A DNA stretch of 64,000 bases from a phage, in sequence record NC_101835.1, one strand, 5' to 3'. Positions within the stretch are counted from its first letter, which is position 1. Every line of letters starts with the position of its first letter. The notes below the pieces were generated by a model. It ran no database searches. It saw only the letters and a program-made list of their open reading frames with translations, and was not told the origin of the DNA. Positions 8,991-54,339 of the stretch are shown piece after piece. The position numbers were made by a program, and so were the translations under genes.

Positions 8991-9077
8991 TGGTGGGGAG
9001 TGGTGGAGTCGAACCACCCGAGTCGCAATGACAATAGATTTACAGTCTACACCGCTACCTCTACGGGATAACTCCCC
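8991..9077 (-). tRNA. tRNA-Tyr (anticodon GTA), type II
   Basis: 87 nt, acceptor GGGGAGT/ACTCCCC, anticodon loop CTGTAAA, long variable arm, T-arm GTGG-TTCGACT-CCAC, encoded CCA. Confidence 0.75.
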
Positions 9078-9081
9078 AATT

Positions 9082-9156
9082 TGGCACCCCGTACTGGACT
9101 CGAACCAGTGTCAACGGCTTAGAAGGCCGCTGCTTTATCCACTAAGCTAACAGGGC
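9082..9156 (-). tRNA. tRNA-Arg (anticodon TCT)
   Basis: 75 nt, acceptor GCCCTGT/ACGGGGT (two G-U), D-arm GCTT-AGTGGATA-AAGC, anticodon loop CTTCTAA, T-arm ACTGG-TTCGAGT-CCAGT, encoded CCA. Confidence 0.75.
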
Positions 9157-35280: not shown

Positions 35281-36213
35281 ATGAGGAGACTAACAACCGA
35301 AGAGTTTATAGAAAAAGCTCAGACTATACATGGTGACAAATATGATTACTTCAAAGTGGAGTATAAAAACAACAAGACACCTGTGTGTATAATTTGTCCT
35401 GAGCACGGTGAGTTCTGGCAAACCCCTGTGGCACATGCTTTCAAGAAGCATGGTTGTCCAAGGTGTGGTGGGTCAGCGAAAAAGAACACTGAAGAGTTCA
35501 TAAAAGAGGCTATGGTTGTTCATGGGGACAAGTACGATTACTCATTAGTCAAATATGCGAACATGAGAACGCCTGTAAAAATTGTTTGCCCTGAACACGG
35601 TGTGTTTGAACAATACCCTGAAAACCACTTATACCAAAGAAACGGCTGCCCAGAGTGCTATGACTTAAGACGTGGGCAAAGTCAAGCGTTAACCCATAAG
35701 GAGCATGCTGCAATTATCCACAAAGCCAACCCAGACATAGAAATATTAGAGAAAATTGCCAATGATAACACAAAAGTGCAATGTAGGTGCAAAATTTGTG
35801 GGTATAAGTGGTCTGCTAAACCTAATAACCTAAAAAGTGGTCGTGGCTGCTGTAAATGCGCACAAAATGGATTCTTATCTCATGAGTACGGTAAACTCTA
35901 CATTATGGTTGATGACTTAGAAGTGCCAACACTTATGAAAATCGGTGTATGCGTTAAAATGCACAGGAGGAAAAATGAGGTGCTTAACAGTGCTCGTAAA
36001 TCTGGCGCAGGTGTCCACACTCTTCACGTAGTAAAAACGTGGAGCGGATCAACTCAAAACATGGTAGACTTAGAAAAATCTGTGCATAAGGCCTTCAGCA
36101 AGTATAAAATAAACTTTCCTGTAAAATTTGACGGTAGCACTGAGTTTTTCTACTACAGGCCTGAAGTGTTTGACACGGTAGAAGAGGTATACAAGAAGAT
36201 TTGTGGTAAATGA
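35281..36213 (+). CDS. free-standing homing-endonuclease-like protein: 3 zinc-ribbon repeats plus C-terminal T5orf172 (GIY-YIG-like) domain
   Basis: Three ~60-aa repeats (HGDKYDY...CPEHG...GCPxC) and C-terminal T5orf172-like domain (EFFYY). Confidence 0.5.
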   Translation: MRRLTTEEFIEKAQTIHGDKYDYFKVEYKNNKTPVCIICPEHGEFWQTPVAHAFKKHGCPRCGGSAKKNTEEFIKEAMVVHGDKYDYSLVKYANMRTPVKIVCPEHGVFEQYPENHLYQRNGCPECYDLRRGQSQALTHKEHAAIIHKANPDIEILEKIANDNTKVQCRCKICGYKWSAKPNNLKSGRGCCKCAQNGFLSHEYGKLYIMVDDLEVPTLMKIGVCVKMHRRKNEVLNSARKSGAGVHTLHVVKTWSGSTQNMVDLEKSVHKAFSKYKINFPVKFDGSTEFFYYRPEVFDTVEEVYKKICGK

Positions 36214-38251: not shown

Positions 38252-39181
38252 ATGCGTTTAGGAGAACAGTTATCACGAGAAGAAGTGTTTATCAAGAAAG
38301 CTACTGATAAGCATGGTGACAAGTATGATTACTCCAAAGTTGTATACAAAAACAACACAACACCTGTGAATATAGTGTGCAACAAGTGTGGTACAGTTTT
38401 TAGTAAAACTCCTAAGTCTCACCTTATAGGCGCAGGATGCCCAGATTGTAAGAACAGGGAGTTAAGTGAGAGATTCCGAATGTCTAAGGAGGAGTTTGTA
38501 AAAAGGGCAACAGAACTGCACAAGGGGAAGTATGACTACTCTCTTGTAAAAAGTTTTTCTAACAGGAACGACACTGTTACTATTATTTGCCCCATCCACG
38601 GAGAGTTCAAGCAGACAGTTGCAAATCATTTAGCTGGTGGGTGCTACAAGTGTGGAAAAAGAGCGACAGCTAAAAAGATGAGGAAGTCTAAAGATAGATT
38701 CATAGAGGATGCTACTCAACTACACGGAGACATATATGACTATTCAGAAGTGAAGTATGTGAATACCCACACTCCTGTAACCATTATCTGCAAGTCTTGC
38801 GGGTGTAAGTTTCTTCAACAGCCTGCAAACCACCTGTGCGGTAACGGTTGCCCAGAATGCTCTACTTCAGGATTCAGGCAGAGTACTAAAGAGAGCTGTC
38901 TGTACCTTCTTGTTGATGATCTTACCATTCCCACGGTTATAAAAGTTGGGGTGACTATCAATCTACAGAGCAGACTATACAACATAAGAAGGAACACAAA
39001 TTTTCCTGTTCACGTGCTTAAAGTATTTACTTTCGAGCAGGGGTGTGCTACCATGCAGCTTGAAAAATTGGTGCATAAAGTCTTTGCAGATCGCAACTGC
39101 CACTTCGAAGGTTTCGACGGGGCAACGGAGTGGTTCTGGTACTCTCATGATATTGTAGAGTTTCTAGAAGACAATTGTTGA
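38252..39181 (+). CDS. free-standing homing-endonuclease-like protein, paralog of 35281..36213
   Basis: Same architecture: three HGDKYDY/zinc-ribbon repeats and C-terminal T5orf172-like domain (EWFWY). Confidence 0.5.
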   Translation: MRLGEQLSREEVFIKKATDKHGDKYDYSKVVYKNNTTPVNIVCNKCGTVFSKTPKSHLIGAGCPDCKNRELSERFRMSKEEFVKRATELHKGKYDYSLVKSFSNRNDTVTIICPIHGEFKQTVANHLAGGCYKCGKRATAKKMRKSKDRFIEDATQLHGDIYDYSEVKYVNTHTPVTIICKSCGCKFLQQPANHLCGNGCPECSTSGFRQSTKESCLYLLVDDLTIPTVIKVGVTINLQSRLYNIRRNTNFPVHVLKVFTFEQGCATMQLEKLVHKVFADRNCHFEGFDGATEWFWYSHDIVEFLEDNC

Positions 39182-41524: not shown

Positions 41525-41800
41525 TTGTGTATTGTTGTTTTCAACAAGAGGGGGTCATTTATGTACAAGTCATTTTCAATCTACTCAAGACAGGCGAAAC
41601 ACTACACAGAGATCCTGATCACTCAGAAAAAATCTGTGGAAGGTGAGTGGGAATATCACCATAAAATGTTGCGTCCAGACTGGGTTTTTGATAGACTTAT
41701 TGCTATGATCCCTCTCGGAGAAGTATACCCTCTGACAGCCCATCGCGATGCTTGGGATTTAATTGATTACATAGATTCATTTAAGGAGCCTAGATTATGA
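41525..41800 (+). CDS. hypothetical protein (91 aa)
   Basis: ORF in co-directional block; start may be internal. Confidence 0.3.
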   Translation: MCIVVFNKRGSFMYKSFSIYSRQAKHYTEILITQKKSVEGEWEYHHKMLRPDWVFDRLIAMIPLGEVYPLTAHRDAWDLIDYIDSFKEPRL

Positions 41801-42195
41801 AGATTGAGATTACTAAAGAAGGTAAGAAAGTGTCCGGCAACTATGCAACAGTAATTCGGGATTTAATGTTTGAAGCCACCAAGATCGGTACATCTAAAGT
41901 TGGTCAAACTGTTAGTGTGAAAAGTAATATCTCCACAGGAGAGAAGGTATTCATTGTGGTCAAAGGGCAGGATCCCGTGGAAGGAACAGTGGGCCGAGGT
42001 GGCTACCTGTGCATTTCTGAAGAGCCGCGTATGTTAGTGGCTGACGCTACTATGGGTGGGAAACGTGTGTGCGAGGCGGATGAGGTAATGATTATCCAAC
42101 CTGTTGATCCAGATGACCCAGCAACTTGGGTGGTAGGAAATGAAATCTTCTCTTTAGAAGAGTTATCCTTCCCAGCACCGCGCTCTGTTCAGTAA
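41797..42195 (+). CDS. hypothetical protein (132 aa), possibly distant member of small-protein family A
   Basis: Translationally coupled; VFIVVKG element. Confidence 0.35.
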   Translation: MKIEITKEGKKVSGNYATVIRDLMFEATKIGTSKVGQTVSVKSNISTGEKVFIVVKGQDPVEGTVGRGGYLCISEEPRMLVADATMGGKRVCEADEVMIIQPVDPDDPATWVVGNEIFSLEELSFPAPRSVQ

Positions 42196-42232
42196 TAATT
42201 TATCTTACCAGGGACGGTAGGTAGGAGGTAGC

Positions 42233-42466
42233 ATGAAAGTTAAATTTCTTACAGATTTAGGGTACCCTTCCTTGGTTGACTGTGTTGGTAAAATTGTGGA
42301 AGCAAAACGGCTATCTGCAAACGAGAATGTTGTCCTGGTTAAAGGGAAGGATTTACTAGCTGCAGGTGCAGAGTCTGGCAGGATCTCTCCTGATTATATG
42401 TATTACCTATCTTTAAGTAATCTGCCAGAGCGAGGCGGTAAAGGCCTTGAAGTTGTGGAGGAGTGA
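42233..42466 (+). CDS. small acidic protein, paralog family A
   Basis: MKVKFL..., VLVKGKDLLAAGA, C-terminal EVVEE. Confidence 0.4.
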   Translation: MKVKFLTDLGYPSLVDCVGKIVEAKRLSANENVVLVKGKDLLAAGAESGRISPDYMYYLSLSNLPERGGKGLEVVEE

Positions 42467-42996
42467 CAGGTATGCTTCTGATTAACTGGGAAGACCTCTA
42501 TGGGGACAAAGACCCTGTTGCGTTTGTTGATCGTAGGTGGAGATACACTGAAGAACAACTGGCGGCAAAAAATTTAACTGCAAAACGCAGAAAGATCATC
42601 CAGTGCAAGTACAAATACGCACAGTTTGCTGCAAAAGTGTCTCCACAAATCGAGAGCTTTGTGCTTAAATTGTATGACGAGTACCTCAAATTCAAATTGG
42701 ATTTTGTGCAGGTGTACCGTGCACAGGTACGACCAGATACCAACATATGTAGATGGAAGGTTGTTTGTGAAGGTAAAGATTTGCCGCTCAGCTTGACAAT
42801 TGAGTGGCGTTATGGGTATCATGAGTGTGGTCTGTATGATATTTGGGATGTCATTGTAGATCCTGCTAAGCATCTGAACACAGAGGAGCTGGAATATATC
42901 AATAAGGTTATTCTCGATATGTTTTTCAGCTACACACATGAAAACTCTGAGAAAGAACGGGATAATTTTCTTGACACCCTCAGCGACCATTTGTAG
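42463..42996 (+). CDS. hypothetical protein (177 aa)
   Basis: Translationally coupled ORF. Confidence 0.4.
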   Translation: MTGMLLINWEDLYGDKDPVAFVDRRWRYTEEQLAAKNLTAKRRKIIQCKYKYAQFAAKVSPQIESFVLKLYDEYLKFKLDFVQVYRAQVRPDTNICRWKVVCEGKDLPLSLTIEWRYGYHECGLYDIWDVIVDPAKHLNTEELEYINKVILDMFFSYTHENSEKERDNFLDTLSDHL

Positions 42997-43026
42997 TATA
43001 CAATTTAACCTACAAAGGGAGGACCA

Positions 43027-43254
43027 ATGAGTATAAATGTTGTGCTAATAGGTTACCTGGTAATGTCCGTTATAACAGCGGTATTCTTGACAGGTGTATG
43101 CATCGTGTCCAGACGAAGGGTGAAGTTTGATGATTTTATCACCATCATCACTGCTGCACCTTTTTGGCCTGTTGTTATCTTCATCGTAATAATGTGCCTA
43201 GTTGATTACTACAAGAATATCAGGAAGGAGAGTAGGGATGGAGACCGCACCTAA
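43027..43254 (+). CDS. small membrane protein (75 aa)
   Basis: Two predicted TM helices; GGAG RBS. Confidence 0.35.
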   Translation: MSINVVLIGYLVMSVITAVFLTGVCIVSRRRVKFDDFITIITAAPFWPVVIFIVIMCLVDYYKNIRKESRDGDRT

Positions 43255-43455
43255 AACTATCTATACTGTTCTTAAAGAGATTGCGTTCTACGCAGATCTT
43301 AGCCAGGCACCTTTATGGGAAAAGAGCATGTATTTAAAATGGTGCGTTAATTTAGGGAGACCTTCCAGTGTTTCAAGCCATGTTTATTGAGATGCTATCT
43401 GGGATATTGTTACTGGTAGCCATCTTAGGTGGTGCAGTTCTGATGTATAACTATC

Positions 43456-43659
43456 TTGAAAAAGGAGACAGCAATGGTAAAAAATAAATCTTTAGAGCAG
43501 GCTGAAAACCTTCTCCACGAGCTGGTAAAGGAGTGGAAAGTTGAATACTCAGATTTTAATGCACGAGAGGGTGAAGATTATTGGCCTACGGAGCGCTCAG
43601 AGGGCGAATGGTATCAAGATTTTATAGAGTGGTTATATCAGACGTGCGATGAGGGGTGA
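43456..43659 (+). CDS. hypothetical protein (67 aa)
   Basis: GGAGA RBS. Confidence 0.3.
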   Translation: MKKETAMVKNKSLEQAENLLHELVKEWKVEYSDFNAREGEDYWPTERSEGEWYQDFIEWLYQTCDEG

Positions 43660-44126
43660 CGATGTTTGTTAAATATGTAAAAACGTGCCTCAACAGTCTT
43701 GGCAGAGAGCATTGGTACACCTTGCTTGAAAAAGGGGAAATTTTAACAAAATCTGGAAAGATAACTTTGATACCTCTTGATAGTAAAGGTAAAGACCCGT
43801 CACGACTTGTTATAGATGATTACGTTACAGGTGTGACGTTCGAGGTCTCTGTGGAGAGGTTAATACGCAGAGCTGGCGGCCCTTATGACCGAAGAGAGTA
43901 TGTTTTCGATTCCGTTACAGAGATGGGGGAGCATCCGTCTTTAATGTTCAGGATGGTAATCAGAGATATGAGGTCATCTATAGATAGGATCGTAAAGGAC
44001 ATTAAGGAACCTTTTAGAGTAAAAGTTAAGAAGTTTTTCGATTCTAAGATTAACATACTCGCCGTTGCACTAGGTGTAGTTCAACTTCTGTTAATTTTGC
44101 ACTATTTTGAACTGCTATTTAAGTAG
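43656..44126 (+). CDS. hypothetical protein with C-terminal TM helix (156 aa)
   Basis: Coupled ORF; hydrophobic C-terminus. Confidence 0.35.
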   Translation: MTMFVKYVKTCLNSLGREHWYTLLEKGEILTKSGKITLIPLDSKGKDPSRLVIDDYVTGVTFEVSVERLIRRAGGPYDRREYVFDSVTEMGEHPSLMFRMVIRDMRSSIDRIVKDIKEPFRVKVKKFFDSKINILAVALGVVQLLLILHYFELLFK

Positions 44127-44188
44127 TAGTTGAGATATGGCACAAAGGATGTGCCATAGTGAAATAAACTAAGAAAGAGGTAGAGAGA

Positions 44189-44536
44189 ATGCCAAAGATT
44201 AAAACGTTATTACTGTGGGTAGCTGTTTTAGCTTTTATAGGGTACTGGACTTGGGAAACTGAATTAAAAGATATCGGATATACCAGTCTTGAGAGCAAGG
44301 CGTGCATTGGCATAACCGATGCGTTCAGGCAAAATGCTATGGATCACGAATGTGTTGATGCAGATATAGATGAGAAACTGTCTAAGGACAAAGATTTTTA
44401 CCATGGGCATGCTTTACTTGATAGTGGTGACACTGTAGAGTTCTGGTCGTGGTTTCGTGAAGATGGAACAATAAAAACAGCAGTAAAGATCTCTAACAAA
44501 GAGTTAATGCTGTTGCAGCAAAAGGAGGCTCAATGA
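44189..44536 (+). CDS. hypothetical protein with N-terminal signal/TM (115 aa)
   Basis: GAGG RBS; hydrophobic N-terminus. Confidence 0.35.
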   Translation: MPKIKTLLLWVAVLAFIGYWTWETELKDIGYTSLESKACIGITDAFRQNAMDHECVDADIDEKLSKDKDFYHGHALLDSGDTVEFWSWFREDGTIKTAVKISNKELMLLQQKEAQ

Positions 44537-44820
44537 TCTGGATATCCTATGCTGATGGCACCATGCTGTATACTGCAGGTACCAGATATGAAGTTCAGGA
44601 GAACGATAAAAAATTTATCGTAAAAACATTTGACAAGGACGACAACCTTTTGCTAGAATTGACTTACAAAGTTGGAGAGGTATCCAATATCCAGTTGGAT
44701 TGTGGTCATAAAGATAATCCACTCAAAAAACCTGGAGTAGGTAAGGCTTCAGAAGAACGTCTGTCTCGTATTGCAGAAAGCGTTTCTCCCCAAAAATCTA
44801 AGAAGAGGACTAGAAAATGA
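44533..44820 (+). CDS. hypothetical protein (95 aa)
   Basis: Coupled ORF. Confidence 0.35.
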   Translation: MIWISYADGTMLYTAGTRYEVQENDKKFIVKTFDKDDNLLLELTYKVGEVSNIQLDCGHKDNPLKKPGVGKASEERLSRIAESVSPQKSKKRTRK

Positions 44821-45011
44821 AAAACTTACGTTTTAACACTTATTACTACAACACATTGAATGATTTGTATTATATTGTTCGAAGTAAAAGTCCTGAAACA
44901 GTCCTATTCTGCCGCGAACCTTTCAAAGGGGAGGAAGTAGAGTCTGAGATGAATGTTAGCCAGATCACCTCTTTGTTGCTCTCAGGCGCAATGGAAGAAG
45001 CAATATTCTAA
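44817..45011 (+). CDS. hypothetical protein (64 aa)
   Basis: Coupled ORF. Confidence 0.3.
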   Translation: MKNLRFNTYYYNTLNDLYYIVRSKSPETVLFCREPFKGEEVESEMNVSQITSLLLSGAMEEAIF

Positions 45012-45029
45012 ACCAGGCAGGAGGGTTTT

Positions 45030-45218
45030 ATGAAGCACTATTGCCTGTCTGGTAGAATGGGTGCAGATTGTGATTGGGTTTTCTTAAAACTTGTCAGCAT
45101 TCGAGAGTTCATCCCAGAGGAAGAGCAAGAAAGCGAGCTGATGTCATGGATCAACCATTACGGTAACACTTTTCGGCATGTTAAGGTAGAAGAGTTGCCA
45201 AGCGAGGCTGAATTATGA
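45030..45218 (+). CDS. hypothetical protein (62 aa)
   Basis: AGGAGGG RBS. Confidence 0.3.
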   Translation: MKHYCLSGRMGADCDWVFLKLVSIREFIPEEEQESELMSWINHYGNTFRHVKVEELPSEAEL

Positions 45219-45511
45219 AACTTTTTGAGTGGTTTAAAAAGTTTAAATATAAAGCTGTAGCCATCGTGCCGTGGTCCATTCAGTGGGTTGATGAAGGTGG
45301 TCTACCGATACCTGGTGACAAAGATACTGGGTACTGGATTATGATGGAGAACGGGTTTGGAAAGCGAAAGTATACGTGCACAAACTCTACTCGATCTGCA
45401 CTTAATAGAGTGCCTGGTTACAAACTTATGGTTGTGTGGAAAATGTCAGGCGTGCCTCCAGCCAATGCTCAATTTCTTACTGACAATCCGACCACGGTAG
45501 AGGGAGATTGA
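45215..45511 (+). CDS. hypothetical protein (98 aa)
   Basis: Coupled ORF. Confidence 0.35.
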   Translation: MKLFEWFKKFKYKAVAIVPWSIQWVDEGGLPIPGDKDTGYWIMMENGFGKRKYTCTNSTRSALNRVPGYKLMVVWKMSGVPPANAQFLTDNPTTVEGD

Positions 45512-45795
45512 TAATGAAAAAGATTAACAGTAGTGAAGTAGAGTTTAAACTTGTCGGAAAAGGCACTTACTGGGAAGTTCGTCAAAAGGTATATTTGTTC
45601 GGTCTTATTCCCTACTGGTCTAAATTCTACTGGGGAGCTAACGAGTTGGGAAGATACGCCACCAAATCAATGGCACTTATTGGTATAGCAGAGTACATTG
45701 CAGCCCGAGACAGGGTTGGAACCACTTATTACTACACTGCTGACGATATTCGTAACAGTGTTTACGTCCCACAACCACCTGATGGAGACCGTTGA
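45508..45795 (+). CDS. hypothetical protein (95 aa)
   Basis: Coupled ORF. Confidence 0.35.
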   Translation: MIMKKINSSEVEFKLVGKGTYWEVRQKVYLFGLIPYWSKFYWGANELGRYATKSMALIGIAEYIAARDRVGTTYYYTADDIRNSVYVPQPPDGDR

Positions 45796-46019
45796 TGAAA
45801 GTTAAAGTTTTAGATTCAAGCTTCTATATTGGTCAGGAGCCTTTAGTAGGAAAAGTGTTTACTGCTGTCCCTAACGAAGATTACCCTGACCTTTTAAAAA
45901 TAAAAGGAGCAGATCTTATTGCCGCTGGTGCATCTCAAGAATGCTTTGACAGTCAGTGGACCTATAACTTTGCCCTAGGTGAGGATGTAGAGGTAGTGGA
46001 GGACGATCATGAAGGTTAA
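45792..46019 (+). CDS. small acidic protein, paralog family A
   Basis: MKVKVL..., KIKGADLIAAGA, C-terminal VEVVEDD. Confidence 0.4.
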   Translation: MMKVKVLDSSFYIGQEPLVGKVFTAVPNEDYPDLLKIKGADLIAAGASQECFDSQWTYNFALGEDVEVVEDDHEG

Positions 46020-46263
46020 AATTCTTGATTCTAACGTCTACTTGGGACAATCCTTCCTGAATGGAAAGGTCGTTCCTGCGGTATACTTTGAAGGGTTGCC
46101 GTGGGATGATCCTGTGCGGCAACATCACAGTTATGTAGGCCACAACGTGGTGTTTATCTTGGGATCAGACCTGATCACCGCTGGTGCACCTGAATATTAT
46201 TTCGGGGAAGAGTCCTACTATGCCTTTGGGGTAGGGTCAGATGCAGATATTGTAGAGCTGTGA
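46009..46263 (+). CDS. small acidic protein, paralog family A
   Basis: MKVKIL..., ILGSDLITAGA, C-terminal DIVEL. Confidence 0.4.
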   Translation: MKVKILDSNVYLGQSFLNGKVVPAVYFEGLPWDDPVRQHHSYVGHNVVFILGSDLITAGAPEYYFGEESYYAFGVGSDADIVEL

Positions 46264-46275
46264 TGGGTAACCGTT

Positions 46276-46674
46276 GTGAAAAATAAACTGTTTAAAGTTA
46301 CAATGAAAATTCGCGGGGCTTGGAGCGTAAAGCAAGGGCGTATTCCAGAATTTGAGAAAGACTTCTACGTAGTCTCCACCTCGGAGGAGGCTGCATGCTG
46401 GCAGGCTGGCTATGCCTATGCAAGAACCTGGTACGAAGGATACCAGACTGGGGGCTATGACGGAGAAATTATCAGCAAGGGTGTAGAAGAAATTAATGTG
46501 TTGACAAGTGAAAAAGTTTTTGTTATAGTGCATCCAGATTCCAGAGTGAAGCATTACTGGAATGCCAGAACAAAAACTTGGACACCGTTTGCAGATTCTG
46601 CTACGCCACTTTTAAACCAGAAAGCTCTTGACTCTGCCCCAAGTTATGGGGTTGTTGAAGAAAAGCTAAACTGA
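46276..46674 (+). CDS. hypothetical protein, paralog family B
   Basis: Shares HPDSRVKHYWNARTKTWTP-type segment with 48486..48881. Confidence 0.4.
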   Translation: MKNKLFKVTMKIRGAWSVKQGRIPEFEKDFYVVSTSEEAACWQAGYAYARTWYEGYQTGGYDGEIISKGVEEINVLTSEKVFVIVHPDSRVKHYWNARTKTWTPFADSATPLLNQKALDSAPSYGVVEEKLN

Positions 46675-46691
46675 AACAGTGAGGTGTCACC

Positions 46692-46982
46692 ATGATGGAT
46701 TTAATTCTAAATATTGATAACGCAGGAGAGTTTAAAGACGATGGTGTAACAAGCATGGACAAACCCTGCTCTGCTAAGGTTGACTCAAAATGGACCTACA
46801 AGTTTGACGGAGAGATCTTCGCAAATGATGAGAAGGTTGTAGATGCTGCAGCCATTTTAAACGCTCTAGGGTACGACCCTGTGAATTCTTTGATCAAGGA
46901 TCCTGTTGAGTTTGCAGAGTATGTTCGAAAAATGGCAGATCTTGCTGTGGATATTTTAAAAACTATCGACAACAAGCTGTAA
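46692..46982 (+). CDS. hypothetical protein (96 aa)
   Basis: ORF with RBS. Confidence 0.35.
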   Translation: MMDLILNIDNAGEFKDDGVTSMDKPCSAKVDSKWTYKFDGEIFANDEKVVDAAAILNALGYDPVNSLIKDPVEFAEYVRKMADLAVDILKTIDNKL

Positions 46983-47066
46983 AAACTGTTGACACAACGC
47001 TTCAGATTTAGTATCATTGTTTTCAAAGAGAGATAGTTATTCCCTCTTCCTTAAAAGGAACACGTT

Positions 47067-47387
47067 ATGCAAATTGAAATCACTGGCAACAATGTAGAAA
47101 TCACAGAAGGTATGGTATCTTTTATTTCCCGCAAAATGTCCAAGCTGGAGCGTTTACATCCCTCTGTTAACTATGCACGTGTGAGTGTAAAAGTTGAAAA
47201 TGATCACCAGGAAGTTATGGCGTTCATTTTTGACAATTCTGGAAAAGAAGTTATTGCCAAGGCTAAAGGCAGTGATGCTTACGAGGCAACTGACCGTATG
47301 GTAGATGTTGCAGCACGTCAGCTGGCTAAATGCGGTGGAAAGAAAGGTAAGGGGAAAGGCAAAGTAAAGATTGACTTTGGAGAATGA
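47067..47387 (+). CDS. hpf: ribosome hibernation promoting factor / RaiA (YfiA) family homolog
   Basis: Recalled alignment to E. coli HPF: MQIEITGNNVEITEG, KLE, VKVE, ...ARQLAK; C-terminal Lys/Gly-rich tail. Confidence 0.7.
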   Translation: MQIEITGNNVEITEGMVSFISRKMSKLERLHPSVNYARVSVKVENDHQEVMAFIFDNSGKEVIAKAKGSDAYEATDRMVDVAARQLAKCGGKKGKGKGKVKIDFGE

Positions 47388-47396
47388 GGTGCTACA

Positions 47397-47498
47397 ATGG
47401 GTGTGATTAAGAAATTAGTCCCAAATGTAGAGATTGCATGCTTTGAAATTATGTTTGCAATCGCAGTTGTAGTTAATGTGTTAGGTTACGGCTATTAA
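47397..47498 (+). CDS. small hydrophobic peptide (33 aa), tentative
   Basis: GAGGT RBS; hydrophobic; below ORF-track cutoff. Confidence 0.2.
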   Translation: MGVIKKLVPNVEIACFEIMFAIAVVVNVLGYGY

Positions 47499-47524
47499 TA
47501 TCAAATAATTGAGGAGACCTCTAA

Positions 47525-47794
47525 ATGAAAATTAAATTATTCCAAACTGAGCTGGCAGACAAAAATTGTGGACTGGTTGAAGGCATGATTGTTGAAGCAC
47601 AACCAGTGGACTATATGAAGGTGGTTCGTGATGCCCTAGGTGAAGGTTTTGATCTGATGGAGCCAGCTCTGCGAGAAGATGTTATCGAGATGGCTAAAAA
47701 GCACACACCTGAAGGTTTGGTGGTGTTTGTTGCACCGGGTAACGGAGAAGAGTTGATTGTAACTCCTGATGTGTATGAGATTGTAGAGGAATAA
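47525..47794 (+). CDS. small acidic protein, paralog family A
   Basis: MKIKLF..., C-terminal YEIVEE. Confidence 0.4.
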   Translation: MKIKLFQTELADKNCGLVEGMIVEAQPVDYMKVVRDALGEGFDLMEPALREDVIEMAKKHTPEGLVVFVAPGNGEELIVTPDVYEIVEE

Positions 47795-47885
47795 TCCTGC
47801 TTGGATTAGCATACTTCCTCGCTAAGGAAGATTTGTAATTATTTGTGGGAAAGGAGTCCCAATCTCTTACCAGAGGTGATACTAT

Positions 47886-48149
47886 ATGATTGTTTATTTT
47901 AAAACTTCAGGTGGATACCCTGATTCTCAAAGCTTGATCGGAAAAACGTGCACAGCATACTCACCTCTTGATGAGGAGGTAAGCGATATTTTACGAAATA
48001 TGTATCGGATTGACCCCCAAGAAGCCTTTGATCAAAACCTTGTATTTGTCAAGGGCTCAGATATGAAGTCTTTGGGAGCATTCCCTGAAGCAGATGATGA
48101 TGCCGTTTATTCGTTCATGACTCCTTTTGAAGCTATGGTTGTTGGGTGA
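47886..48149 (+). CDS. small acidic protein, paralog family A
   Basis: VFVKGSDMKSLGA, C-terminal acidic. Confidence 0.4.
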   Translation: MIVYFKTSGGYPDSQSLIGKTCTAYSPLDEEVSDILRNMYRIDPQEAFDQNLVFVKGSDMKSLGAFPEADDDAVYSFMTPFEAMVVG

Positions 48150-48153
48150 TAAT

Positions 48154-48486
48154 ATGAAAGTACGCTTTATTGGTGAAACAATTCCTGTGCATCTCCGGTC
48201 GCCTGAGGATTCTGCAGATCTTGCATCTCAAAAGGCGAGAGGTTATGATAAGAAAGTAACCTCAACCGATGTAGTGCTTGAGGCTACTAGTCTACCTGAC
48301 CCTGCTGCATTCTTTAATCATTATGGGTACTATTTCAGCAATCTGATGAATATCGGTGAGCTTGTGTTTATTAGTGGTGGAGAAATTGTTAGCAAGCTTG
48401 GCGGCGATCCGGATATCTTTCATGAAACCTGTCCTTTTGCATTTGTGGTAGGTTCAGATGTGGAAGTTATTGAGGAGGTGCGGTAA
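48154..48486 (+). CDS. small acidic protein, paralog family A; start at internal MKVRF
   Basis: VFISGGEIVSKLG, C-terminal VEVIEEVR. Confidence 0.35.
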   Translation: MKVRFIGETIPVHLRSPEDSADLASQKARGYDKKVTSTDVVLEATSLPDPAAFFNHYGYYFSNLMNIGELVFISGGEIVSKLGGDPDIFHETCPFAFVVGSDVEVIEEVR

Positions 48487-48881
48487 TGGTAAGCCTATAC
48501 CGTGTTGAGTATAGCTCAGATACTGTATACAACGTAAGAAGCAAAGATCGCAGCGACAGAGTGCAAGAAATGTATGTTCTTGCCGACAGTCCGTTATCTG
48601 CAGCGTTCAAGGCAGGGGCTCTTGCATCTCGTTGGAAATTTGAAGGTGGATCTTTCTATGAAGAAACCCTTGAAGATTCTGTTGTTATTTCTTCTGTAGA
48701 GGTTTCAGATGACTACGAAGGGAAAAAGTTCGTAATGCGGCACCCACACAGCAACATTGCGTACTACTGGGATGTTCTGAACAACGAGTGGACCCCAGAT
48801 CTTCAGAAGGCTACTGTGCTAACACCGTTTTTGGCAGATAAGTTCCCACCAGAAGGTAATTTATCCGCACTGTTTCAGTAA
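48486..48881 (+). CDS. hypothetical protein, paralog family B
   Basis: HPHSNIAYYWDVLNNEWTP segment shared with 46276..46674. Confidence 0.4.
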   Translation: MVSLYRVEYSSDTVYNVRSKDRSDRVQEMYVLADSPLSAAFKAGALASRWKFEGGSFYEETLEDSVVISSVEVSDDYEGKKFVMRHPHSNIAYYWDVLNNEWTPDLQKATVLTPFLADKFPPEGNLSALFQ

Positions 48882-48957
48882 TTTTCTTGCACACAGGTGT
48901 TGACAACGCCAACCCTGTGTGAAATAATACCTTCATCTTAATAAGACAGGGGACCGA

Positions 48958-49218
48958 TTGATGAAGATTAAATTGAAAAACCTTGAAACGGCAGAGATTC
49001 AGGACGGTGTTGATTTCCGTTCTAAAGATGGTGACATCTTAGAGGTAAATATTCCAACCTACGAGCTGATTAAAGGTTTTGGCAACGTTCCGGAAGAGGA
49101 TATTACAGAAATTCTTATGATGTTGATTCTTGACGGAACTGTGTTTGTAGGTGAAGGTGAGAACGCTATTGCAATCCCAGGCCATTTTTATGAAGTAGTT
49201 GACGAAGAGGTGCTGTAA
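48958..49218 (+). CDS. small acidic protein, paralog family A
   Basis: MKIKLKNL..., C-terminal YEVVDEEVL. Confidence 0.4.
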   Translation: MMKIKLKNLETAEIQDGVDFRSKDGDILEVNIPTYELIKGFGNVPEEDITEILMMLILDGTVFVGEGENAIAIPGHFYEVVDEEVL

Positions 49219-49569
49219 ATGAAAGTAGAAATTACCGGTTTTGATGTGAATGTGGTTCCGGAAGATATTTTAGCTAAACTTCCAGAAGGTTTTGGTAACG
49301 GCGTTGTGGTGGATGCTGTTCCTCCTACCAAAGACATTCTGCTGCAGTATGGTGTAGCAGAGGAAGATGTCGATAAAGTTCTTACAATGATGGCAATCGA
49401 TCGTGTTGTCGTTGTTAAAGGTCTCGATAATTTTGAGAGTGATCCCTTGATTATTCGTGGAGATGACTACAAAATCATCGATAATGAAGGCCAAGAGTTC
49501 TATGAACCTTGTGCAGAAGATATTCTTAACTTATTACTGGAAGCAGGTACCGAAGAGGAGGACGAATAA
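49219..49569 (+). CDS. small acidic protein, paralog family A
   Basis: MKVEITGFDV..., VVVVKGLD, acidic tail. Confidence 0.4.
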   Translation: MKVEITGFDVNVVPEDILAKLPEGFGNGVVVDAVPPTKDILLQYGVAEEDVDKVLTMMAIDRVVVVKGLDNFESDPLIIRGDDYKIIDNEGQEFYEPCAEDILNLLLEAGTEEEDE

Positions 49570-49898
49570 TGAAGATTGACCCGTTACTGAAGGCTCGTGC
49601 AGAAAAAGCGTACACCATTAAGCTGACCAACCTGGTTCCTACTTGTCATCCAGATGTAGGTTGGCCTGAAGGTCTGGTAGAGGGGACTGTAACAGCTGCA
49701 TACCTCCCTAACATCAAATACCTCATGGAAATCTTGGAGCTGGATGAGGAAACGGCAGAAGAGTTCCAGTTGGACATGAAACAAAGTGGGACTCTGGTTA
49801 TTCACGGGTGGTACAATACTAGAGATGCAGAAGACCCTCTGGTAACTTCTAATCTGGCATATGAAATCTTAGGGCCTTTGAACCTGGAGGAAGACTAA
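49569..49898 (+). CDS. small acidic protein, possible family A member
   Basis: Coupled ORF; acidic; YEILGPL near C-terminus. Confidence 0.35.
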   Translation: MKIDPLLKARAEKAYTIKLTNLVPTCHPDVGWPEGLVEGTVTAAYLPNIKYLMEILELDEETAEEFQLDMKQSGTLVIHGWYNTRDAEDPLVTSNLAYEILGPLNLEED

Positions 49899-50185
49899 TG
49901 AAAGATCTGGTTAAGATTAAGATTAAAGATACCAATGGAGAACTCAGTCATTTTGGAATTAATGATGGTGACGAGCTGATCGCACACCTGCCTACCAAGG
50001 AGGTTGTAAGCAAAGCAGTTGCCGGAGAAGAAGCTGCAATGCAGGCTGCAGGTGTGGATGAAAACTATGTAGCTATGTGCATGTGCCGAGATCAGGTTGT
50101 TCTGTATAAAGCGTATCGACCAAACGGAGCCACGGAGTGGCTTGTATTCCGACCCGAAGGATATGAAATCTTAGAGGCACTATGA
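49898..50185 (+). CDS. small acidic protein, possible family A member
   Basis: Coupled ORF; C-terminal YEILEAL. Confidence 0.35.
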   Translation: MKDLVKIKIKDTNGELSHFGINDGDELIAHLPTKEVVSKAVAGEEAAMQAAGVDENYVAMCMCRDQVVLYKAYRPNGATEWLVFRPEGYEILEAL

Positions 50186-51285: not shown

Positions 51286-51312
51286 AGAGGGGGGCTTGGG
51301 CCCCTCTTTTTA
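51286..51312 (+). terminator. rho-independent terminator
   Basis: AGAGGGG-ggcttggg-CCCCTCT then TTTT. Confidence 0.55.
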
Positions 51313-51661: not shown

Positions 51662-51969
51662 GGTGGATTATGTCTACAAAGGCGGCTAAATACTCCTATA
51701 TGCCATCAACCTCTGCAGAGGTAGACTTTAGTTTCGATGTGTTTCCACTGTTTGAGGTGGTTCTGGCATACCCAACAATACTAACTACTCCTGAATCACT
51801 TGTGCCTGTTAAGTTGCAGAACGCTATGCATTCTATGCACTACAACAATAAATGTAGGCACAGATGGTGTCAGGACGAGGAAAAAGATTTGGATAGTTTG
51901 AGAGATTTTGACAGTCACCTTTTGACACCTTTTAGCTACTCCAACCTTGATAAGCCCTCATGGGTATAG
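51658..51969 (+). CDS. hypothetical protein (103 aa)
   Basis: Coupled ORF. Confidence 0.35.
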   Translation: MRWIMSTKAAKYSYMPSTSAEVDFSFDVFPLFEVVLAYPTILTTPESLVPVKLQNAMHSMHYNNKCRHRWCQDEEKDLDSLRDFDSHLLTPFSYSNLDKPSWV

Positions 51970-51993: not shown

Positions 51994-52020
51994 AGGACGC
52001 TCTGTGGCGTCCTTTTCTTT
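51994..52020 (+). terminator. rho-independent terminator
   Basis: AGGACGC-tctgtg-GCGTCCT then TTTTCTTT. Confidence 0.5.
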
Positions 52021-52182
52021 GTCTGGTGCACGATTGCATACCTTGGACAGATAATCTCGTTACAGAGCGTTTAAGAGCTTCCTACAAACAACTCCATATT
52101 TCGAGCGTAGCGAGAACGCACGTCCGTTTTGACCCAAATCACCATACGCTCGGATTTTAACCAAACCCTCGCGGCGTTTCTA

Positions 52183-52217
52183 TTGACACATTACAGCTCC
52201 AGTGATAATATCCACAC
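52183..52217 (+). promoter_or_regulatory. sigma70-like promoter
   Basis: TTGACA-N17-TAATAT. Confidence 0.4.
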
Positions 52218-52231
52218 ATCATTTGGAGAAT

Positions 52232-52333
52232 ATGGAATACACTATGAGAACATTGTCCGAAGTTTTAGTGGTGATCCTGATGATCATTACGTCCATAGCG
52301 GCTGTTGCCGGAATACTCACAGGTGGAACATGA
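52232..52333 (+). CDS. small transmembrane peptide (33 aa), tentative
   Basis: TGGAGA RBS; single hydrophobic helix; stop overlaps next ATG (ATGA). Confidence 0.25.
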   Translation: MEYTMRTLSEVLVVILMIITSIAAVAGILTGGT

Positions 52334-52542
52334 TCAACACACATGCATCTGAAGAGACATCCGAAGGAGTGACCATATGTCCCTTGGATGAGCCAGTTAA
52401 AGAGGAAAACTTAGATTCTGAGGACTCTTCATCTTCGTCCCAGACAGATCCTGAGGCTGATGACCTGACGTGGGAGGACATCGTAGATATCTGGTTCTCT
52501 ATTATGCCTGAGCACGAAGAGTTCAGAGGTGGTAGACTATGA
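52330..52542 (+). CDS. small highly acidic protein (70 aa)
   Basis: 3' part of ORF 52129..52542 from internal ATG; 5' part of that ORF spans the promoter and is judged non-coding. Confidence 0.3.
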   Translation: MINTHASEETSEGVTICPLDEPVKEENLDSEDSSSSSQTDPEADDLTWEDIVDIWFSIMPEHEEFRGGRL

Positions 52543-52661
52543 AGCACCGAGCCCACACAGGTTCCTCATGCTAAAGCATGGCCTGAAGAGGCAAACGTGC
52601 ATAATTCCTGCGCATTTGGACGTATAATCCTGTTCACACTCTCATTTCCAGAGGAGATTTT

Positions 52662-52877
52662 ATGAAGATAGAGATATTTGGTGGAGCTGACAACACTCGT
52701 GGCCTGATTTACCTTGAATTCGATGAATCATACCTGCCAGAGGTGTTAAATATAGACTCTGTTGCTGAGGCTTTGGGAGTAAACCCTAAAGAACTCCACT
52801 CTTGTGCTGAGATCGATGGTTGGGAAGAGACCATGAACATTGATTTCAGTGAAGTAGAGGATGAACCGCTGGACTGA
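52662..52877 (+). CDS. small acidic protein (71 aa)
   Basis: GAGGAGA RBS. Confidence 0.35.
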   Translation: MKIEIFGGADNTRGLIYLEFDESYLPEVLNIDSVAEALGVNPKELHSCAEIDGWEETMNIDFSEVEDEPLD

Positions 52878-53219
52878 CACACAATTAGCTGCCCGGCTAA
52901 AGTGCTGGAAGCACCTATAACACATCTTTCAACTAAATTTCCTACCACCACAATCACTTACCTCCCACACATGACTGTTTGCTTGTTTAGTGAGCAGTCA
53001 TGCCTTGACATTCTTGCCTATCCTGATAAAATTAAGTTCTTCTCTTTTCTTTTACCGAGTAATTCGGGTTTTCTGTTCTCTTCGGTTTGAAGGGGTATGG
53101 AGATACACCTGAGTGAACAGGGTGAACAACCGAACCTTTGGCTATGGCATTAGCATGGCGAAGCGGACGGGTGACGAAAGAGGGGCCGGAGGACACCAGT
53201 CACTGCCATATGATATATG

Positions 53220-53800
53220 GGTGATAACCTGAAGAGTCTGAATAAGTGTTTAAGTACCAGTCAGAGGAAAAGGTGAATGGTAGCCGAAGGGGGGAGGGGG
53301 GTTTCTTGTATCTTTAATTTGTATATTATGTATACACTTGTAAACCAATCTAATCTGAATCTGTTTACCACACAAAGCGGATAGAGACAAATATTGCCTA
53401 TTAAACTTGAATTATTTATAGAAAATACCACAACACTACTTAAGTCTTTGATTTTACACACAAATCCTGCAGATATTCACCCTCCATATTTAACATACTT
53501 GTAACATATTCCATACTCTACCTGCCCGATCAATTCACCCAACTACATCCCCATATTTTCCCTGTCTGTACTACCCCTGCCCCGCCGGGAGTCCCATCAT
53601 ATCTGGCTTTCCAGCAAATATCACACCCACAAATATCATTGCCTGAAGAGGGTTTCATCCCATAATACCTGCCTTACCTGAAGAGCGCTTCATACACCAC
53701 GTAAATTTTTTAATTGACCTCCCCCTGCCCCGCCGGAGAGGTTGGCTTTTCCCACACAGACCTGAAGAGTCAGCCAGAAATATCTGAATAGGCCCAATTC
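53220..53800. repeat. dispersed direct repeats in non-coding region (CCTGAAGAG x4; CCCTGCCCCGCCGG x2)
   Basis: CCTGAAGAG at ~53226, 53643, 53677, 53761; CCCTGCCCCGCCGG at ~53573 and ~53722. Confidence 0.5.
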
Positions 53801-54339
53801 TACCACGATTTTGACCTGACCTACAGGGAGGCCCGAAGGGTCTAGCTTTCAGCTAGAGTCCTTGCAGGACCTACAGGAGCGCTGCCAGGCGGACGGAATG
53901 GGAATACTTCTCATTCTTATAACAATTCTCAAATATCGAGGCAGTGAGAGAAATTAATAGGCCAGGCCGTTCACACAGTGGCACAACATTTGCAACCTAT
54001 TTTGTGTGGATGAATGAGAATACCTATCATTATGAGAATAGTTATCATTACTGGCAATTTAACATAATACCCATTATGCGCACCACTGGCGATCCATACA
54101 GGGATTGATAACATGAGTTACTGTTTACGCATATAACAATTATATTTATTACTATTTGTGTTGGGTATAGTTAGCAGCCGATAGATTAGATATTGACCTG
54201 CAGACTTCCAACTGTCTAGACGTCTAAACGCCCACACAGCAAGGATTATACATACACAACTGAATGTAAACAGGGCCGCAAAAATGCTACCATACCAGAT
54301 TGTAAATTTTTCATGCAGCACTTGACAAAGAGGAGGAAA

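What the first reader, a model, noticed from the sequence alone, without database searches (positions are those of the whole stretch)
41797..50185. Tandem array of at least eight paralogous small acidic proteins plus a second two-member family
Genes at 42233, 45792, 46009, 47525, 47886, 48154, 48958 and 49219 (and likely 41797, 49569, 49898) encode 75-120 aa acidic proteins sharing an MK(V/I)K start, a VxVKG(x)DL...AGA core and a C-terminal (Y/V)E(V/I)VEE-like tail. A second family has members at 46276 and 48486. Diversified tandem paralogs of this kind often mark anti-defence or host-takeover repertoires.
Basis: seen in the sequence. Interest (0 to 1): 0.65.

Follow-up and report, generated by a model that had tools for sequence, protein, structure and literature searches.

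The report
Small barrel-protein gene arrays in rV5-like phage
An E. coli phage of the rV5 group carries twelve tandem genes from three uncharacterised small-protein families, and published transposon data show that one three-gene unit is needed only on a clinical host strain, which makes it a testable host-range or counter-defence candidate.

Summary
The window is an rV5-like Vequintavirus, 99.7% identical to phage Murica. Every gene in the finding is annotated "hypothetical". Sequence statistics do not support one family of 8-11 members.

They support three families:
- **Family A**, five members (42233, 45795, 46009, 47886, 48154), with the VxVKGxDL..AGA core.
- **Family B**, five members (47525, 48961, 49219, 49569, 49898), without that core.
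- **Family C**, two members (46276, 48486; phrog_7379).

Gene 41797 is not a member.

AlphaFold models of one A and one B protein (pLDDT 90) have the same strand order. The A model is an SH3/KOW-like small barrel. A-B homology is plausible but unproven.

A three-gene unit (A, A, C) occurs twice. Some relatives carry a chimeric 45795/46009 gene.

Family A also occurs in T4-like Krischvirus, again as an array, and in lambdoid prophages. B and C were found only in Vequintavirus.

In published Tn-seq of the near-identical phage Bas54, all members are dispensable on K-12. Orthologues of 47886, 48154, 48486 and 46276 are strongly depleted on uropathogenic strain CFE311.

Most likely these are host-strain-specific accessory proteins, possibly counter-defence. 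The mechanism is untested.

The parts
42233..42466 (+). Family A member (77 aa), solitary copy
   Evidence: phrog_5009 E 8e-36. BLASTP to 45795 E 9e-6. Leave-one-out HMM E 1.1e-8. Bas54 orthologue bas54_0166 shows no phenotype.
45795..46019 (+). Family A member (74 aa), position A1 of module 1. This is the protein modelled.
46009..46263 (+). Family A member (84 aa), position A2 of module 1. It overlaps the A1 gene by 11 nt.
   Evidence: BLASTP to 45795 E 2e-13, 40% identity. phrog_5009 E 3.7e-32. It fuses with 45795 into a 70-aa chimera in two related contigs.
46276..46674 (+). Family C member (132 aa from the GTG start, or 123 aa from ATG 46303), third gene of module 1
   Evidence: phrog_7379 E 4e-74. 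28% identical to 48486, BLASTP E 2.7e-7. Orthologue bas54_0157 is depleted on CFE311, log2FC -2.14, q=0.
47525..47794 (+). Family B member (89 aa), solitary copy upstream of module 2
   Evidence: Leave-one-out HMM rank 1, E 2.8e-3. Near full-length hhalign to 48961 over 77 columns. bas54_0153 log2FC -2.78, not significant.
47814..47830 (+). Terminator-like hairpin between 47525 and module 2
   Evidence: Pattern scan only. Function not shown.
47886..48149 (+). Family A member (87 aa), position A1 of module 2, with an insertion between strands 2 and 3
   Evidence: HMM E 1.9e-6. Leave-one-out E 3.1e-5. hhalign probability 78-84% to 45795 and 42233. bas54_0152 log2FC -7.16, q=0 on CFE311.
48154..48486 (+). 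Family A member (110 aa), position A2 of module 2. Its stop codon overlaps the start of 48486 (TAATG).
   Evidence: HMM E 6.4e-5. Leave-one-out E 1.1e-6. hhalign probability 92% to 46009. Sequence read. bas54_0151 log2FC -6.17, q=0.
48486..48881 (+). Family C member (131 aa), third gene of module 2
   Evidence: phrog_7379 E 2e-66. bas54_0150 log2FC -6.77, q=0 on CFE311, while the next four downstream genes are unaffected.
48900..48928 (+). Sigma-70-like promoter match (TTGACA-17-AATAAT with TG) in the gap before the four-gene B block
   Evidence: Pattern scan, 11 of 12 matches. Function not shown.
48961..49218 (+). Family B member (85 aa). This is the protein modelled.
   Evidence: phmmer to 49219 E 2e-4. 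Leave-one-out E 1.7e-7. AF2 pLDDT 90.1 with order beta1-beta2-two helices-beta3-beta4-beta5.
49219..49569 (+). Family B member (116 aa) with an acidic C-terminal extension (net charge about -21)
   Evidence: Leave-one-out E 3.6e-9. Charge.
49569..49898 (+). Family B member (109 aa), the most divergent
   Evidence: Leave-one-out rank 1, E 2.3e-3. Pairwise evidence alone is weak.
49898..50185 (+). Family B member (95 aa)
   Evidence: Leave-one-out E 6.3e-5. A 95-aa protein of an Escherichia myovirus (vB_EcoM-ECP32), possibly its orthologue (identity not verified), is the second structural hit of the 48961 model in BFVD, E 2.5e-3, TM 0.66.
41797..42195 (+). Not a member.
   Evidence: No significant hit to any member. 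It matches a separate family, phrog_5748.
51670..51969 (+). Outside the finding and unrelated in sequence: orthologue of bas54_0140, validated as required to overcome the DS-28 defence
   Evidence: 98% identical to bas54_0140. Paper text. Sequence.

Best explanation
The region is a conserved accessory-gene block of an rV5-like (Vequintavirus) coliphage. It grew by tandem duplication of genes for small, acidic, single-domain proteins.

Shown here:
- There are two five-member families (A and B) and one two-member family (C).
- The family A model is an SH3/KOW-like five-stranded barrel. The family B model has the same strand order, with a helical insert between strands 2 and 3. The longer A members carry their inserts at the same position.
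- A three-gene unit (A, A, C) is present twice, at 45795-46674 and 47886-48881.
- Neighbouring A genes can recombine into one chimeric gene.

Shown by others' data: the genes are dispensable on E. coli K-12, but the second A-A-C unit and the first C gene are needed on uropathogenic strain CFE311.

Inferred: the proteins have no catalytic motifs. They most likely act stoichiometrically, binding host proteins that differ between strains. The most probable targets are components of an anti-phage system or another strain-specific barrier. Paralogue diversification would widen the range of targets. The A-A-C unit may act as one complex, or the C protein may be the effector with its expression coupled to the upstream A genes.
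For: - Identity of the phage and conservation of the block in 114 of 121 Vequintavirus records.
- Family membership statistics.
- Confident AF2 models for one A and one B protein with the same element order.
- Shared weak BFVD hits between the two models.
- Tight packing and start/stop overlap in module 2.
- The chimeric 45795/46009 gene in two independent contigs.
- Tn-seq: all members non-essential or intermediate on K-12. bas54_0150, 0151, 0152 and 0157 are depleted on CFE311 while flanking genes are not. Orthology at 98-100% identity.
- A validated anti-DS-28 gene lies 1.5 kb downstream in the same gene block.
- Family A occurs patchily in unrelated phages, always inside runs of small unknown genes. 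In lambdoid prophages it lies between antiterminator Q and the holin. In T4-like Phi1 it lies between dam and gene 38, where five ORFs match the profile.
- Strong sigma-70-like promoter matches are almost all on the + strand: 13 versus 1 at >= 10 of 12 matches. This is consistent with host-RNAP (early) expression.
Against: - No binding partner, defence system or biochemical activity is known for any member.
- Orthologues of 42233, 45795, 46009, 48961, 49219, 49569 and 49898 show no phenotype on CFE311. Usable data exist for that one clinical host only.
- Depletion of the two A genes in module 2 could be a polar effect on 48486, given the overlapping stop/start.
- The strain-specific requirement need not involve immunity.
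- The block is syntenic and 79-98% identical even in the most divergent genus member, so it is less variable than many counter-defence islands.
- A-B homology is not statistically established.
Confidence: 0.5

Rival explanations
1. These are general host-takeover or physiology modulators, not counter-defence. The small barrels would bind conserved host machinery (transcription, translation, proteolysis) to tune infection. The CFE311 requirement would reflect physiological differences between strains.
For: The array is embedded among a ribosome hibernation factor homologue (47067-47387; Pfam Ribosomal_S30AE E 4e-15), a ClpP-like protease, PhoH and a methyltransferase. SH3/KOW-like barrels often bind components of the translation and transcription machinery. 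The block is conserved across the genus.
Against: The genes are fully dispensable on K-12. The requirement is strain-specific and all-or-none for module 2, with counts falling to 0. The acidic charge argues against nucleic-acid binding. Family A is also spread among unrelated phages in moron-like positions.
Confidence: 0.2
2. Only the C proteins (48486 and 46276) matter. The A and B families would be redundant or near-neutral duplicates, and the depletion of 47886 and 48154 would be a polar or translational-coupling artefact.
For: Both C paralogues are depleted, while A members outside module 2 are not. The stop codon of 48154 overlaps the start of 48486, and 47886 ends 4 nt before 48154. The preprint concedes that locus-dependent polar effects are possible.
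Against: Insertions in 45795 and 46009, just upstream of 46276, are not depleted although 46276 is. Polarity is therefore not general in this block. The preprint argues against widespread polarity. A and B proteins are well conserved across about 120 genomes, and family A across unrelated phages, which implies selection.
Confidence: 0.2
3. The shared motifs are compositional or convergent, so there is no real gene family.
For: A versus B is not significant by profile methods. 'MK' starts are the commonest two-residue start among + strand genes here (16 of 77), and acidic pI is frequent.
Against: Within A, within B and within C, homology is statistically solid. A natural chimera between 45795 and 46009 also exists. 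This rival therefore survives only for the A-B link and for 41797.
Confidence: 0.05

Closest known systems
PHROG families phrog_5009 (family A core) and phrog_7379 (family C), both 'unknown function'
   Same: 42233, 45795 and 46009 match phrog_5009 end to end (E 1e-32 to 1e-38). Both C proteins match phrog_7379 (E 1e-66 to 1e-74).
   Different: PHROGs places 47886, 48154 and each B member in separate single-lineage families (phrog_13920, 13661, 11868, 12359, 12155, 12457, 12794). The groupings found here are therefore not recorded in PHROGs. No function is attached to any of these families.
SH3-like / KOW / PsaE small beta-barrel fold
Phage counter-defence and accessory gene clusters, such as the T4 early anti-defence genes and the neighbouring validated gene bas54_0140
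   Same: These are small early-region genes, dispensable on a laboratory host, conditionally required on a wild isolate, and clustered with a validated anti-defence gene.
   Different: No cognate defence system is known. There is no similarity to bas54_0140 or to any characterised inhibitor.
Small acidic phage inhibitors that mimic DNA (Ocr, ArdA, Arn); comparison from general knowledge
   Same: Small size and strong net negative charge, from -6 to -21.
   Different: The predicted fold is a beta-barrel, not the elongated helical mimics. Charge spacing was not analysed. There is no sequence match.

Membership tests
phrog_5009 (unknown function) | Full-length match to the family HMM | tested here: met
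   42233, 45795 and 46009 match at E 8e-36, 1.7e-38 and 3.7e-32. 47886 matches only weakly (E 1.2e-4) and 48154 gives no hit. Those last two join only through a custom profile.
phrog_7379 (unknown function) | Full-length match to the family HMM | tested here: met
   46276 at E 4.3e-74 and 48486 at E 2.1e-66.
   hhalign probability 1.7% and 7.8%, over the N-terminal 27-28 columns only. No cross-hits in HMM searches. Column-shuffle test: 3 of 200 shuffles reach the real score.
   The order of secondary-structure elements is the same in the two models, and they share a few weak BFVD hits. No direct superposition was possible, and only one member of each family was modelled.
SH3-like small beta-barrel fold class | Five-stranded barrel that superposes on SH3/KOW/PsaE domains | tested here: met
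SH3-like small beta-barrel fold class | Conserved ligand-binding residues of SH3 or KOW domains | not tested
   Sequence identity to hits is 4-25%. No residue-level comparison was made.
Characterised anti-defence proteins (Acr, Ocr/ArdA, Tad, Gad, Dmd and others) | Sequence relationship to a characterised inhibitor | tested here: not met
   No Pfam, NCBIfam or PDB-sequence match for any member.
Characterised anti-defence proteins (Acr, Ocr/ArdA, Tad, Gad, Dmd and others) | Demonstrated neutralisation of a defined defence system | not testable with these tools
   Only indirect evidence exists: conditional essentiality of four orthologues on strain CFE311.
DNA-mimic proteins | Strongly acidic surface | tested here: met
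   pI 4.05-4.8 and net charge -6 to -21 for nine of ten A/B members.
DNA-mimic proteins | Charge pattern that imitates the DNA backbone, and binding to DNA-binding proteins | not tested
   No surface analysis or binding data.

The most novel reading that the evidence does not exclude
Family A would be a widespread SH3-like inhibitor scaffold, so far unrecognised, that phages amplify in tandem to match host immune diversity. Arrays are seen in Vequintavirus and in T4-like Krischvirus, with single copies in lambdoid prophages and several sipho- and podoviruses. The conserved A-A-C unit at 47886-48881 would form a three-protein complex that disarms a still unidentified immune system of uropathogenic E. 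coli CFE311.
Probability: 0.25. Interest if true: 0.75.

Novelty: new member of a known kind. Interest (0 to 1): 0.5.

Why it matters
rV5-like phages are broad-host-range coliphages used in therapy cocktails, and most of their early genes are unannotated.

This analysis turns twelve 'hypothetical' genes into three defined families with a predicted fold and a duplicated three-gene unit. It connects them to an existing but undiscussed genetic phenotype: a requirement on a clinical UPEC strain.

That gives a short, concrete path of four knockouts plus a search for the host factor. The outcome could be either a new counter-defence family or a new host-range determinant.

It also flags a wider phage protein family (about 40 clusters at 50% identity) that forms arrays in at least two unrelated phage lineages.

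Tried and rejected
- **One family of 8-11 members.** Rejected. A and B profiles do not find each other. The column-shuffle test is only suggestive, and its shuffled scores had large outliers.
- **41797 as a member.** Rejected.
- **Neighbours 50628 and 51335 as further members.** No sequence support. An 83-aa protein of Shigella phage CM1 is a weak structural hit of the B model. I could not verify which gene it corresponds to.
- **Characterised-family matches.** None in Pfam, NCBIfam, PDB sequences or named PHROGs.
- **The search for related loci with the broad family A alignment.** It failed because no stretch was conserved enough. I used tblastn of distant members instead.
- **Other functional-genomics papers.** CRISPRi-ART, a second phage transposon preprint and an accessory-gene screen hold no data on these genes. 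The Zorya/Druantia/ARMADA paper names no phage counter-defence genes.
- **The CFE303 Tn-seq comparison.** It could not be used. The sheet labelled CFE303 in Extended Data Table 8 holds the CFE311 comparison again.
Full report
**What the window is.** The 8.4-kb region is 99.7% identical to Escherichia phage Murica and at least 90% identical to about 120 rV5-like (Vequintavirus) genomes. In 114 of 121 records one match covers at least 80% of the region. All ORFs named in the finding are annotated CDSs with ribosome-binding sites in Murica, and are present in the BASEL phages. All are 'hypothetical protein'. The genes lie at the far end of a long + strand block (GC skew). That block also encodes PhoH, a ClpP-like protease, a methyltransferase and a ribosome hibernation factor homologue.

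**Is the paralogy real?** All-against-all BLASTP of the window's 539 ORFs links 45795-46009 (E 2e-13), 42233-45795 (E 9e-6) and 46276-48486 (E 2.7e-7). The links to 48154 are only weak. A profile of the three core genes then finds 47886 (E 1.9e-6) and 48154 (E 6.4e-5) and nothing else.

Among the other candidates only 48961-49219 is significant pairwise (E 2e-4), although each candidate's best hits are the other candidates. I collected orthologues from the 5.8-billion-protein collection and ran leave-one-out profile searches. The held-out gene was always the top non-member hit:
- Family A: E 1.5e-20 to 3e-5.
- Family B: E 3.6e-9 to 2.8e-3.
- Next best ORF in every case: E >= 0.23.

So there are two solid five-member families.
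- A = 42233, 45795, 46009, 47886, 48154.
- B = 47525, 48961, 49219, 49569, 49898.

Identities within each family are 22-47% for A and 26-29% for B.

The A and B profiles do not detect each other. A column-shuffle control put the real hhalign score above all but 3 of 200 shuffles. That is suggestive only. Gene 41797 matches neither family and belongs to phrog_5748. The VxVKGxDL..AGA core is an A-only feature. The MK(V/I)K start and the hydrophobic-acidic tail are shared by both families. The two-member family C is confirmed, since both proteins match phrog_7379.

**Structure.** AlphaFold2 gave confident models using the family alignments.
- A (45795): pLDDT 90.3, elements E2-5, E21-23, E33-37, H38-43, E56-61, E65-69.
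- B (48961): pLDDT 90.1, elements E2-5, E26-28, H34-38, H45-57, E61-63, E70-72, E77-79.

The order of elements is the same. B carries two helices between strands 2 and 3, which is where the longer A members (46009, 47886, 48154) carry their insertions.

No member matches Pfam, NCBIfam or any PDB sequence. Nine of the ten A/B proteins are strongly acidic.

**Organisation and dynamics.** The order is:
- A(42233)
- ... a stretch of unrelated small genes ...
- [A(45795) - A(46009) - C(46276)]
- two unrelated genes, then the hibernation factor
- B(47525)
- [A(47886) - A(48154) - C(48486)]
- B(48961) - B(49219) - B(49569) - B(49898)

The A-A-C unit thus occurs twice. 47886 is closest to 45795 and 42233, and 48154 is closest to 46009. 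This fits duplication of the whole three-gene unit. In module 2 the genes are 4 nt apart and then overlap by 1 nt (TAATG). In module 1 the two A genes overlap by 11 nt.

Two independent rV5-like contigs carry a single 70-aa gene in place of 45795 and 46009. It has the N-terminus of 45795 and the C-terminus of 46009, and it sits directly before the C gene. This shows recombination between the adjacent paralogues.

Bas54 lacks six unrelated genes (43656-45511) that the window has. Otherwise the array is syntenic even in the most divergent genus member. There 42233, 45795 and 46009 are 79-86% identical, while module 2 is 96-98% identical.

**Distribution.** B and C were found only in Vequintavirus. 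Family A is wider. An exhaustive HMM search of 1.84 billion representatives found 40 clusters at E <= 1e-3. Most are 63-87 aa with the consensus MKVKLLNDGGY...GK.v.A...I.G.eLI.aGA...Y.F..G.E.EvvEE. One is a tandem double domain.

Members occur in several settings:
- E. coli lambdoid prophages, between antiterminator Q and the holin, and the related phage MagusPhagus.
- Vibrio phage VpV262, Proteus phage Isfahan, Dhillonvirus and Citrobacter phage Merlin.
- T4-like Krischvirus Phi1, where five ORFs between dam and gene 38 match the family profile. Two adjacent ORFs score E about 1e-8, and three more score E 2e-4 to 5e-3.

Tandem expansion of this family has therefore happened in at least two unrelated virulent lineages. 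It always sits inside runs of small unknown genes.

**Functional evidence from the literature.** The HIDEN-SEQ preprint (10.1101/2025.11.20.689424) reports transposon sequencing of Bas54, which is phage MaxBurger. Its proteins in this block are 98-100% identical to the window's, except the 41797 orthologue at 86%.

On K-12 every array gene is 'non-essential' or 'intermediate'. In the comparison of K-12 with uropathogenic isolate CFE311, insertions change as follows:

| Bas54 gene | Window gene | log2FC | q |
|---|---|---|---|
| bas54_0152 | 47886 | -7.16 | 0 |
| bas54_0151 | 48154 | -6.17 | 0 |
| bas54_0150 | 48486 | -6.77 | 0 |
| bas54_0157 | 46276 | -2.14 | 0 |
| bas54_0153 | 47525 | -2.78 | not significant |

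For the first three genes the counts fall to zero. The orthologues of 42233, 45795, 46009, 48961, 49219, 49569 and 49898 are unaffected. The main text does not discuss these genes. It follows up only bas54_0063 and bas54_0140, which are required against the predicted DS-28 system. The orthologue of bas54_0140 lies at 51670-51969, 1.5 kb beyond the array, and is unrelated in sequence.

Three caveats apply:
- The two A genes of module 2 could be depleted through polarity on 48486. Against that, insertions in 45795 and 46009 do not phenocopy 46276.
- The sheet labelled CFE303 repeats the CFE311 analysis, so only one clinical host is documented.
- The host factor is unknown.

**Interpretation.** The data support a conserved accessory block of small binding-type proteins, part of which is a host-strain-specific fitness determinant. 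Counter-defence is the most likely reading for the A-A-C unit, but it is not shown. For B and the remaining A copies nothing beyond conservation and context is known.

Strong sigma-70-like promoter matches are heavily biased to the + strand. Several lie in the intergenic gaps, at 46989, 47371 and 48900. This is consistent with early expression but is not tested.

**Novelty.** The genes themselves are deposited, and partly clustered in PHROGs as unknown. The following appear not to have been described: the family structure, the fold, the duplicated unit, the wider distribution, and the link to the Tn-seq phenotype. I found no paper that describes them. I rate this a new member of a known kind: phage accessory or host-interaction gene clusters.

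Noticed in passing
window 51670-51969 (+): Orthologue (98% identical) of bas54_0140, which a 2025 preprint validated as required to overcome the predicted DS-28 defence system of E. coli CFE311. It is unrelated in sequence to families A, B and C.
   Followed up: partly
window 47067-47387 (+): A phage-encoded ribosome hibernation factor / RaiA homologue (Pfam Ribosomal_S30AE, E 4e-15) sits in the middle of the array. It is non-essential in Bas54 on K-12 and on CFE311.
   Followed up: partly
window 35281-36213 and 38252-39181 (+): A second paralogue pair, 38% identical over 315 aa (E 2e-54). Both carry T5orf172/MUG113 and treble-clef zinc-finger domains, so they look like homing-endonuclease-type genes.
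   Followed up: partly
window about 52000-54000: A stretch of about 2 kb where the + strand and - strand gene blocks meet (the sign of the GC skew changes here). It holds terminator-like hairpins at 51289-51305 and 51994-52013, and strong promoter-like sites at 52183 and 53005. The HIDEN-SEQ preprint reports that no transposon insertions are tolerated in the corresponding Bas54 region.
   Followed up: no
window 8432-9156 (-): A cluster of six tRNA genes. One of them (8589-8687) is 99 nt long, is called with a four-base anticodon by ARAGORN, and only just passes the Rfam tRNA threshold (35.5 bits).
   Followed up: no
window 5636-6478 (-): A group I intron match exactly at the Rfam gathering score (50.3 against 50 bits).
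   Followed up: no
L013 and L014, 7001-7213: In two rV5-like contigs a 70-aa chimeric gene (N-terminus of 45795, C-terminus of 46009) replaces the two adjacent family A genes. This is evidence of unequal recombination within the array.
   Followed up: yes
L015 (phage Phi1, NC_009821) 393-3828: Five ORFs of this T4-like Krischvirus (ORF071, 073, 074, 076, 080) match the family A profile. They form an independent array between dam and gene 38.
   Followed up: partly
L003, L004 and L005 (E. coli prophage contigs), gene at 8001-8228 or 371-598: A 75-aa family A homologue, 46% identical to 42233 and present in a cluster of 309 sequences. It lies between the Q antiterminator and the holin of lambdoid prophages, which is the classic moron position.
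   Followed up: partly
GenBank MG0656xx records: Eighteen records named 'Campylobacter phage' (host C. jejuni), mostly unannotated, match this E. coli rV5-like region, the listed ones at about 99% identity. The host assignment looks doubtful.
   Followed up: no
Preprint 10.1101/2025.11.20.689424, Extended Data Table 8: The sheets labelled 'K-12 vs CFE303' and 'K-12 vs CFE311' both contain the CFE311 analysis, with the same command line and the same numbers. The CFE303 results for Bas54 are therefore not available from the held file.
   Followed up: yes
window 43656-45511 (+): Six small genes present here and in Murica are absent from Bas54, so this part of the block varies between close relatives. 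Murica annotates one of them (43656-44126) as a possible virion structural protein.
   Followed up: partly
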